Source of the DNA: Oligoflexia bacterium
GTDB lineage: Bacteria; Bdellovibrionota; UBA1018
NCBI GenBank assembly: GCA_043732485.1
Contig: JAYTHP010000075.1
Coordinates: 1 to 15,196 of the forward strand
Direction: 5' to 3'
Length of the DNA stretch: 15,196 nucleotides
Under the pieces are notes generated by a model, which saw only the letters and a program-made list of their open reading frames with translations, was not told where the DNA came from and did no database searches. The stretch's first letter is position 1. Each line of letters opens with the position of its first letter. Positions 10,651 through 11,175 of this stretch are shown in pieces. A program made the translations under genes and the position numbers.

Positions 10651-11175
10651 CTAAGAATGATGAGTCGTGGCTCCCGCATAAATCAAGATCTTGACGTCGG
10701 AACGAAAGATCACCTCAATTTTATTGGGGTAAATCAGCTTGCCAATGATGCCATCGCCAAACTGGCTATGGGTAATTTTATCCCCTAAGGTGAAATGTCC
10801 CTTCATGTGGTAGGGTTTTAGCGGAACTTCTGGATGGGCACCCATCAGTTTCGACCACTCCAGCTCGATGGAGTGGTGCATTTCAGGGTCTTTATCGGCG
10901 CGCGGTGTTTTCTTCGCGGCCTTGCTCTTCACTGCCTGGGGATCAGTGACTCCCTTGGGCGCCCGGTAGAGGTGTTCTTTTTTGCAAGTCAAACACTGAA
11001 CCTTAGCGATTTTGTCGCCTTTCAGGGCAACAATAATGTGATTTAAATCCATCTTACAGCTGGTGCAGTAAGAGAGGGTCTCCTGAGCCACCGGAGAATG
11101 AGCGCTATCTTGAGGGCTGTGTTGCGAATCGCGCGTGTGATCCTGAGTGTGGGCAGGGGATGATTTGGGGGTCAT
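10651..11175 (-). CDS. Hypothetical protein: Zn-ribbon (CxxC...H...CxxC...H) plus C-terminal PcrA/UvrD/CarD-like Tudor domain (174 aa)
   Basis: Zn-ribbon motifs YCTSCKMDLNH and VQCLTCKKEH. C-terminus FTLGDKITHSQFGDGIIGKLIYPNKIEVIFRSDVKILI. SD AAGGAG 7 nt upstream of the ATG. Confidence 0.8.
   Translation of the reverse strand: MTPKSSPAHTQDHTRDSQHSPQDSAHSPVAQETLSYCTSCKMDLNHIIVALKGDKIAKVQCLTCKKEHLYRAPKGVTDPQAVKSKAAKKTPRADKDPEMHHSIELEWSKLMGAHPEVPLKPYHMKGHFTLGDKITHSQFGDGIIGKLIYPNKIEVIFRSDVKILIYAGATTHHS

What the first reader, a model, noticed from the sequence alone, without database searches (positions are those of the whole stretch)
10651..11175. Stand-alone Zn-ribbon + PcrA/UvrD-type Tudor protein head-to-head with uvrC: candidate new NER/transcription adaptor
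Seen: the C-terminal FTLGDKITHSQFGDGII...KIEVIF...KIL matches the pattern of the UvrD/PcrA C-terminal domain (xxxGxxVxHxxFGxGxI...xxVxF...KxL). Here it is fused to a CxxC/CxxC Zn ribbon rather than a helicase, and the gene lies between uvrB and uvrC, 49 bp from uvrC. Established: the PcrA/UvrD C-terminal Tudor domain, related to the CarD/Mfd RNAP-interaction domain, binds RNA polymerase and is reported to contact UvrB. Inference: a small adaptor or competitor linking RNAP to UvrBC, i.e. an undescribed transcription-coupled-repair accessory factor.
Basis: partly seen in the sequence, partly recalled or inferred. Interest (0 to 1): 0.72.

Follow-up and report, generated by a model that had tools for sequence, protein, structure and literature searches.

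The report
Stand-alone RNA-polymerase-docking Tudor protein
A small unnamed protein found in most Bdellovibrio-type bacteria carries a free copy of the domain that the repair helicase UvrD uses to grip RNA polymerase, and a structure model places it on that same site, so it is a testable new accessory of transcription and possibly of DNA repair.

Summary
The 174-aa ORF is a real gene of an unnamed family, found in 124 of 151 sampled genomes of its phylum (Bdellovibrionota) and also in Myxococcota and Desulfovibrio. It has a four-Cys beta domain, a basic linker, a family-specific helix and a PcrA/UvrD-type Tudor domain. All four residues PcrA needs to bind RNA polymerase have conserved equivalents (98-100% of 125 members). 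A modelled complex with this genome's own RpoB scores 0.79 against 0.00 for the best control and lands on the TGE hairpin, the UvrD site; it may pass from memory of PDB 7EGS. The repair link is weaker. The uvrC head-to-head layout holds in 44 of 124 genomes but may be one origin, and a shared promoter overlapping uvrC codons locks it in the own class. Two other lineages sit before a Tudor-less Rep-like helicase or a RapA-like ATPase; most have unrelated neighbours. UvrB here lacks the TGE motif. Verdict: a probable new RNA-polymerase-binding protein (about 0.75); repair or helicase adaptor about 0.4. The scan noted this family before on two other genomes.

The parts
10651..11175 (-). Gene for the 174-aa Zn-domain + Tudor protein (called ZT here)
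   Evidence: 317 homologues at E<=0.001 among 330 candidates; 1402 clusters at 50% identity with E<=0.001
10960..11082 (-). N-terminal four-Cys beta domain (residues 32-72), presumed Zn-binding; conserved H46 and H68
   Evidence: Cys invariant; H46 93%, H68 90%; model pLDDT 93; Zn binding inferred from the motif, not tested
10885..10959 (-). Basic, poorly conserved linker (residues 73-97)
   Evidence: low pLDDT in blocks 71-100; 8 K/R against 3 D/E in residues 70-97
10801..10884 (-). Family-specific helix (98-113, W107) and strand with invariant Y122 in front of the Tudor; not seen in the genome's own UvrD
   Evidence: (W107 79%, Y122 100%)
10672..10800 (-). PcrA/UvrD-type Tudor domain (126-168); H136, F139, K162, L164 correspond to PcrA H681, W684, K712, L714
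   Evidence: modelled interface residues 136-139, 148-150, 152, 162-165
11182..11187 (-). Shine-Dalgarno AAGGAG of ZT
   Evidence: sequence; AGGAG-like elements recur in relatives
11209..11236 (-). Conserved promoter-like element for ZT: -35 TTGATT (11236-11231, inside uvrC codons 3-4), 16-nt spacer, -10 TATAAC (11214-11209)
   Evidence: pattern in 41 of 53 relatives; uvrC codon 2 is GAA in 41 of 41 and codon 4 CAA in 41 of 41, against 41% and 33% in the gene bodies; activity not tested; the generic scan found no promoter
11211..11216 (+). -10-like TATAGT 8 nt before the uvrC start, no Shine-Dalgarno: probable leaderless uvrC from an overlapping divergent promoter
   Evidence: start codon ATG 34, GTG 5, TTG 2 at this position; inference
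11225..13036 (+). uvrC, head-to-head with ZT; ends after the RNase H-like domain with no C-terminal HhH pair
4034..6205 (+). uvrB, 4.4 kb from ZT; its hairpin reads DPLRGV instead of DxxTGE

Best explanation
ZT is a small RNA-polymerase accessory protein. Its C-terminal Tudor domain clamps on the TGE beta-hairpin in the SI1 insert of the RNAP beta subunit, the site used by the UvrD/PcrA C-terminal domain (supported by conservation and a model; about 0.75 on its own). A basic flexible linker then holds the conserved four-Cys domain near the transcription complex, where it grips nucleic acid or a partner that has no Tudor of its own (inferred; no partner shown). The most likely use is genome maintenance at stalled or colliding RNAP: bringing in or steering helicases or excision-repair proteins such as a Tudor-less Rep-like helicase or UvrC (inferred from gene neighbours only).
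For: Docking: H136 100%, F/Y139 99%, K/R162 99%, L/M164 99% of 125 members. These match PcrA residues whose mutation was used to map RNAP binding (PMC5397179 passages; PMC6511836 passage says mutating them abolishes it). The own RpoB has VDEATGEV. Complex model: score 0.79, best of 3 controls 0.00; the mark was reached by 116 of 157 solved and 2 of 215 mismatched pairs; runs agree in at least 56% of contacts; partner pLDDT at least 73. Contacts pair RpoB T161-G162-E163-V164 (fragment numbering) with ZT H136, F139, K152, K162-I165. It chose the second, intact TGE hairpin rather than the degenerate first repeat. Repair link: divergent to uvrC in 24 of 24 own-class genomes and 20 of 22 ZT-positive genomes of family f17 (hand comparison of coordinates). 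Directly upstream of a ~670-aa UvrD/Rep-like helicase without a Tudor tail in 9 of 9 genomes of family f16. Directly upstream of a RapA-like SNF2 protein in 2 loci of one genus. These three sets fall on different branches. Three Zn-less versions stay beside uvrC (L135, L136, L188).
Against: A like complex is solved (7EGS), so the pass may be from memory, and my own alignments were outside the calibration. 0 of the other 78 ZT-positive genomes have uvrC within 5 kb on the same contig (many assemblies are fragmented). One origin of the uvrC link is not excluded. The interlocked promoter can hold the own-class layout without shared function. None of 20 Myxococcota-sample loci has an adjacent repair gene; one has uvrB 2.6 kb away. 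In 11 loci from a third phylum sample the scanned neighbours include no uvr gene, though the two Zn-less hits there precede a DHH/DHHA1 protein. ZT occurs in families where only the long, Tudor-bearing helicase was found (f10, f11, f18). 113 of 151 genomes keep a helicase-fused Tudor, so ZT is not a general replacement. UvrB lacks TGE. The TGE hairpin is kept in ZT-negative genomes too.
Confidence: 0.42

Rival explanations
1. ZT docks on the same RNAP hairpin but is a general transcription factor: the Tudor tethers a nucleic-acid-binding Zn domain or charged tail to RNAP to tune initiation, elongation or pausing. The uvrC link is historical, held by a shared promoter.
For: Most lineages have unrelated neighbours. 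The same helix-Tyr-Tudor module also carries Lys/Ala/Pro-rich or strongly acidic tails, or nothing, as if it were a general RNAP tether. Usually one full-length copy per genome. The promoter overlaps uvrC codons.
Against: Three separate branches sit next to repair or RNAP-linked helicase genes. A rough Poisson estimate (80 neighbour slots, 8-15 such genes in 3000; category chosen after the fact) gives P about 0.02-0.06 for two beyond the selected uvrC case. f17 keeps the uvrC layout although the own-class promoter motif was not evident there by eye.
Confidence: 0.25
2. ZT is a decoy or competitor: it occupies the TGE hairpin and limits or times the access of UvrD to RNAP.
For: Same site in the model. 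It coexists with Tudor-bearing UvrD in most genomes. Free PcrA C-terminal domain was used to block PcrA-RNAP association in vivo (PMC8318588 passages and plasmid table). Some members have lost the Zn domain.
Against: A pure decoy does not need an N-terminal domain with four invariant Cys and two conserved His. ZT is kept in families where PF21196 was mostly not detected (f13 1 of 20, f3 0 of 6, f23 0 of 3), although those Tudors may only be diverged.
Confidence: 0.13
3. The Tudor no longer binds RNAP in vivo. It binds another TGE-hairpin protein or nucleic acid, and the complex model only recalls 7EGS.
For: The tool warns that close cousins of true partners pass. Other proteins in the genome carry DxxTGE-like strings. 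The E. coli UvrD Tudor binds DNA weakly (bioRxiv 2020.07.06.189035 passages). ZT has family-specific K152 and Y122 and an added helix. Median pI 9.5.
Against: All four PcrA binding positions are conserved at 98-100% across a family that mostly shares about 30% identity. RpoB is the known TGE partner with an intact motif here, and UvrB's is degenerate.
Confidence: 0.2

Closest known systems
C-terminal Tudor domain of PcrA/UvrD helicases (Pfam PF21196; PDB 5DMA, 6YI2, 7EGS, 7EGT, 9DQS)
   Same: Fold (rmsd 1.7-2.0 A), HxxFGxG and K-x-L binding residues, modelled docking on the RpoB TGE hairpin
   Different: No helicase. Shorter loops, an added helix with W107 and invariant Y122, conserved K152, and an N-terminal four-Cys domain. 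Below the PF21196 cut-off
DUF3553 (PF12073) proteins and the Tudor tail of mycobacterial DinX
   Same: PcrA-type Tudor outside a helicase, proposed to bind RNAP (PMC6511836 passages); weak hits in 3 of 125 members and Atlas score 0.76-0.77
   Different: DinX is a Y-family polymerase; the Atlas DUF3553 clusters are 51-66 aa with no Zn domain or helix; not tied to uvrC in anything I saw
CarD/CdnL and Mfd RNAP-interaction Tudor domains (PF02559)
   Same: Tudor fold; small RNAP-bound factor (CarD Z 3.9-4.0; weak hits in 9 of 125)
   Different: They bind the beta-1 region, and Mfd did not compete with PcrA for RNAP (passages); no CarD C-terminal domain; the genome has its own CarD-like and Mfd genes (motif search)
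TFIIS/TFS4-type zinc ribbons
   Same: CxxC-hairpin-CxxC topology (TFS4 7oqy Z 3.9, rmsd 2.0, 38 residues)
   Different: No conserved acidic hairpin tip (the acidic tip of TFIIS is recalled); the best matches of this domain are eukaryotic Tudor barrels at Z about 5, so ancestry is unresolved

Membership tests
PcrA/UvrD-type Tudor domain (PF21196-like) | Tudor-like antiparallel beta fold superposable on 5DMA/7EGS | tested here: met
   top rows for residues 125-168, rmsd 1.7-2.0 A over 40-43 residues (Z 4.3-4.8); 7egs_B prob 0.99 but E 0.28
PcrA/UvrD-type Tudor domain (PF21196-like) | Binding residues H681, W684, K712, L714 (PcrA numbering) | tested here: met
   H136 100%, F/Y139 99%, K/R162 99%, L/M164 99% of 125; residue list
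PcrA/UvrD-type Tudor domain (PF21196-like) | Score above the Pfam PF21196 cut-off | tested here: not met
   no hit for the window protein; 17 of 125 members weak, best E 0.0006; the genome scan with PF21196 rang on helicases only
PcrA/UvrD-type Tudor domain (PF21196-like) | Binds the TGE hairpin of RpoB | tested here: inconclusive
   model passes, 0.79 against 0.00, with the expected interface, but may recall 7EGS; no experiment
PcrA/UvrD-type Tudor domain (PF21196-like) | Binds the TGE hairpin of UvrB | not tested
   not modelled; the motif is DPLRG in the window and 20 of 21 related UvrBs
UvrD/PcrA SF1 helicase | Helicase core fused to the Tudor | tested here: not met
   174 aa, no helicase domain; no longer fused form found (weak evidence); the best 150 profile hits are at most 304 aa
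CarD/CdnL | N-terminal RID Tudor plus C-terminal helical domain; binds beta-1 region | tested here: not met
   Tudor is C-terminal and no CarD C-terminal domain is present; the beta-1 region was not in the modelled fragment, so beta-1 binding itself was not tested
TFIIS-type zinc ribbon | CxxC...CxxC ribbon fold | tested here: inconclusive
   Z 3.9 to TFS4, Z 5.3 to SMN/TDRD3 Tudors, none at Z>=8
TFIIS-type zinc ribbon | Bound zinc | not testable with these tools
   inferred from four invariant Cys
Transcription-coupled repair factor (functional class) | Strand-biased repair or UV-survival phenotype | not testable with these tools
   only genetic datum found: DVU2434 is non-essential

The most novel reading that the evidence does not exclude
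Bdellovibrionota, Myxococcota and relatives have a whole unnamed class of RNAP-tethered proteins built on one extended PcrA-type Tudor that docks on the beta-SI1 hairpin and carries interchangeable payloads (Zn domain, Lys/Ala/Pro-rich tail, acidic tail). The Zn form is a helicase-free coupling factor that brings UvrC or a Tudor-less helicase to stalled RNAP, a third route to transcription-coupled repair beside Mfd and UvrD.
Probability: 0.22. Interest if true: 0.85.

Novelty: new variant of a known kind. Interest (0 to 1): 0.62.

Why it matters
The RpoB TGE hairpin has been described as the helicase docking site, and whether UvrD couples repair to transcription through it is disputed (PMC8318588 passages). 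A conserved helicase-free ligand of that site would be a new class of bacterial RNAP accessory protein. It would also let the docking step be studied apart from the motor. It can be tested now: members exist in Bdellovibrio bacteriovorus (CAE79214.1), Desulfovibrio vulgaris (DVU_2434, non-essential) and Oleidesulfovibrio alaskensis G20 (Dde_1345), and exact interface mutations are predicted.

Tried and rejected
(1) ZT supplies the Tudor in trans to a Tudor-less Rep-like helicase everywhere: rejected as a general rule. ZT is present in f10, f11 and f18, where nearly all genomes gave only the long helicase; it may still hold in f16. (2) ZT replaces the UvrD Tudor: 113 of 151 genomes keep a helicase-fused one. 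(3) A doubled TGE motif in RpoB tracks ZT: no. The second motif is kept, with rare exceptions on both sides, in ZT-positive and ZT-negative genomes, and the first varies in both (70 sequences, 20 from genomes without a ZT match). (4) ZT compensates for the missing UvrC HhH domain: no. Short UvrC also occurs in ZT-negative f14 genomes, and most uvrC-linked f17 genomes keep the HhH tail. (5) Fusions: none among the 7999 longer candidates scored (weak). (6) Mobile copies: none in phages or plasmids with one myxobacterial member as query; none in viral contigs with the window protein (close relatives only). (7) Expression: no RNA holder listed. (8) Literature: 0 papers for Dde_1345 or DVU2434. DVU2434 was not in the readable supplements of two D. 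vulgaris interactome papers; five files of one were too large to read and 11 of 23 files of the other were not searched, and these may bear on the RNAP claim. Topic searches listed nothing on this family; 'Tudor' with Bdellovibrio appears to hit an author name. The paper behind 7EGS/7EGT was not held; I saw only the PDB titles. (9) No Myxococcus xanthus locus tag could be found, so its DNA-damage transcriptomes were not checked. (10) Foldseek gave no match at E<=0.001 for either model. (11) The tree is the quick one, with 41 of 87 inner branches open; it used 92 rows and left out most near-identical own-class loci and all Zn-less rows. (12) UvrC, UvrB and Rep-like helicase binding were not modelled: the one complex job went to RpoB.

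Full report
OBSERVATION. The ORF at 10651-11175 (-) encodes 174 aa with a Shine-Dalgarno 6 nt upstream. It is 49 bp from the uvrC start, head-to-head; uvrB lies 4.4 kb away behind four unrelated genes. It has no Pfam or NCBIfam hit above cut-off and no PDB sequence hit as a single protein. It has 317 homologues among 330 candidates; those with names are hypothetical proteins of Bdellovibrionota. A profile search found 1402 clusters at E<=0.001 and 658 at 1e-10. I call it ZT.

RANGE. A 125-row alignment matched 124 of 151 genomes of the phylum and 108 of 123 high-quality ones; a few of these are Zn-less forms. It matched 36 of 71 genomes of the Myxococcota sample, many of them partial, and 11 of 91 of a third phylum sample. 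Named members include Dde_1345, DVU_2434 and B. bacteriovorus CAE79214.1, nearly all labelled hypothetical; one Nitratidesulfovibrio member is labelled DUF3553. The nearest Atlas clusters are unnamed (0.95).

ANATOMY. The model (pLDDT 83, pTM 0.47) shows two compact domains joined by a low-confidence basic linker. The N-domain has four invariant Cys plus H46 (93%) and H68 (90%). Folded alone (pLDDT 93) it resembles Tudor barrels at Z about 5 and TFS4 at Z 3.9, so its ancestry is open. The C-domain is a helix (W107), an invariant Y122 and a Tudor whose best sequence and structure matches are UvrD/PcrA C-terminal domains. PcrA residues H681, W684, K712 and L714 were mutated to map RNAP binding (PMC5397179, passages). 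Their equivalents H136, F139, K162 and L164 are 98-100% conserved, counting F/Y, K/R and L/M.

PARTNER. The PcrA Tudor binds a TGE hairpin in RpoB SI1 and in UvrB (PMC8318588, passages). This genome's RpoB has an intact motif and a degenerate first repeat. Its UvrB reads DPLRGV, as do 20 of 21 related UvrBs. I modelled ZT 26-170 with a 301-residue RpoB fragment. Score 0.79, best of 3 controls 0.00; the mark was reached by 116 of 157 solved and 2 of 215 mismatched pairs; runs agree in at least 56% of contacts; partner pLDDT at least 73. The TGE Glu contacts K162, and H136 and F139 contact the Thr, as expected from PcrA. A like complex is solved (7EGS), so this shows likeness, not binding. With the residue conservation I put RNAP docking at about 0.75.

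NEIGHBOURS. In close relatives 53 of 58 loci have uvrC divergent within 400 nt and 28 of 58 include uvrB. Comparing coordinates by hand: uvrC is divergent in 24 of 24 own-class genomes (one at 1.4 kb), 20 of 22 ZT-positive f17 genomes and 0 of the other 78. In family f16, ZT is directly upstream of a ~670-aa UvrD/Rep-like helicase lacking a Tudor tail in 9 of 9 genomes, and one gene away in G105. In one f11 genus it precedes a RapA-like SNF2 protein (L092, L175). All other sampled lineages have unrelated neighbours; these scans covered selected nearest ORFs or cluster representatives (59, 56 and 36 proteins), and a BLAST screen with Uvr and helicase queries covered the whole loci for all but the third phylum sample. 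On a quick tree the uvrC rows lie in one branch (support 89), and Rep and RapA rows in two others. That is about three separate links, one of which was the reason for selection.

PROMOTER. The 49-bp gap holds a conserved element in 41 of 53 relatives: TTG(A/C)TT, 14-19 nt, TATAAC on the ZT strand, with the -35-like box inside the first uvrC codons. Codon 2 is GAA in 41 of 41 and codon 4 CAA in 41 of 41, against 41% and 33% in uvrC bodies, so the constraint is on DNA. On the other strand TATAGT sits 8 nt before the uvrC start with no Shine-Dalgarno, which suggests leaderless uvrC. This interlock can preserve the layout by itself and so weakens the own-class synteny as evidence of shared function. 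By eye it is not evident in f17, which keeps the layout anyway.

WIDER MODULE. The helix-Tyr-Tudor unit also occurs with Lys/Ala/Pro-rich tails (L129-L132, L147), acidic tails (L138-L141), larger N-terminal domains (L142, L143, L146) or alone (L133-L136, L148). It looks like a reusable tether.

MECHANISM. Shown: gene, conservation, fold, neighbours, promoter-like element. Modelled: docking on the RpoB TGE hairpin. Inferred: zinc binding, a payload role for the N-domain, and use in repair or helicase recruitment. Best reading, adaptor in genome maintenance, 0.42; general transcription factor 0.25; non-RNAP ligand 0.20; decoy 0.13. Tests that failed to support a tighter link are listed under Tried and rejected.

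KNOWN KINDS AND NOVELTY. It works like the UvrD/PcrA C-terminal domain but is not a helicase, not CarD, and falls below the PF21196 cut-off. The precedent for this Tudor outside a helicase is DinX/DUF3553 (PMC6511836, passages). Seven searches listed no paper on this family; the library lacks most subscription papers. The only experimental datum is one supplementary row showing DVU2434 non-essential, beside corA (PMC10102598). The scan noted the family on two other genomes; these are unchecked notes and add no support.

VERDICT. Real, widespread, unnamed; a probable new RNAP-binding protein at the UvrD site. The NER-adaptor role is plausible and unproven. New variant of a known kind; interest 0.62.

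Noticed in passing
window 11225-13036: UvrC ends just after the RNase H-like domain with no HhH pair, as in the other own-class UvrCs inspected; short UvrCs also occur in f10, f11 and f14. How 5' incision works without it is unexplained.
   Followed up: partly
window 4021-4036: uvrB also has a -10-like TATACC 7 nt before its ATG and no obvious Shine-Dalgarno: leaderless repair genes may be common in this lineage.
   Followed up: no
L129:2963-3577, L130, L131, L132, L147: Paralogue with a long Lys/Ala/Pro-rich tail (up to 46% Pro+Ala, about 30% Lys+Arg) on the same extended Tudor with HxxxGWG; looks like an RNAP-tethered histone-H1-like protein.
   Followed up: partly
L138:2650-3189, L139, L140, L141: Myxococcota-sample paralogue with a strongly acidic N-terminus (34-37% Asp+Glu in three measured) on the same Tudor, reminiscent of acidic DNA-mimic tails (likeness recalled).
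   Followed up: partly
families f13, f3, f23: PF21196 was found in only 1 of 20, 0 of 6 and 0 of 3 genomes while ZT is in all; the UvrD Tudor may be lost or diverged there.
   Followed up: no
G000:C148 rpoB, SI1 insert (L169): Two tandem TGE-like hairpins; the first is degenerate in many genomes, and in several f11 genomes the first is intact while the second is altered.
   Followed up: yes
L268, L269: Zn-less Tudor proteins lie between a sigma-54 activator and a DHH/DHHA1 protein (RecJ-like by inference), all on one strand.
   Followed up: no
L154, L155, L157, L158, L159: One Myxococcota branch has ZT upstream of a Ser/Thr kinase gene, directly or one gene away.
   Followed up: no
window 9825-10679: Relatives align only from about residue 50-100, so the true start is probably near Met62, before a lipoprotein-like signal; conserved downstream of ZT in many own-class loci.
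   Followed up: partly
window 13940-15196: Leucine-rich-repeat protein (LRR_6) with a signal-like N-terminus, running off the contig end; not found in related loci.
   Followed up: no
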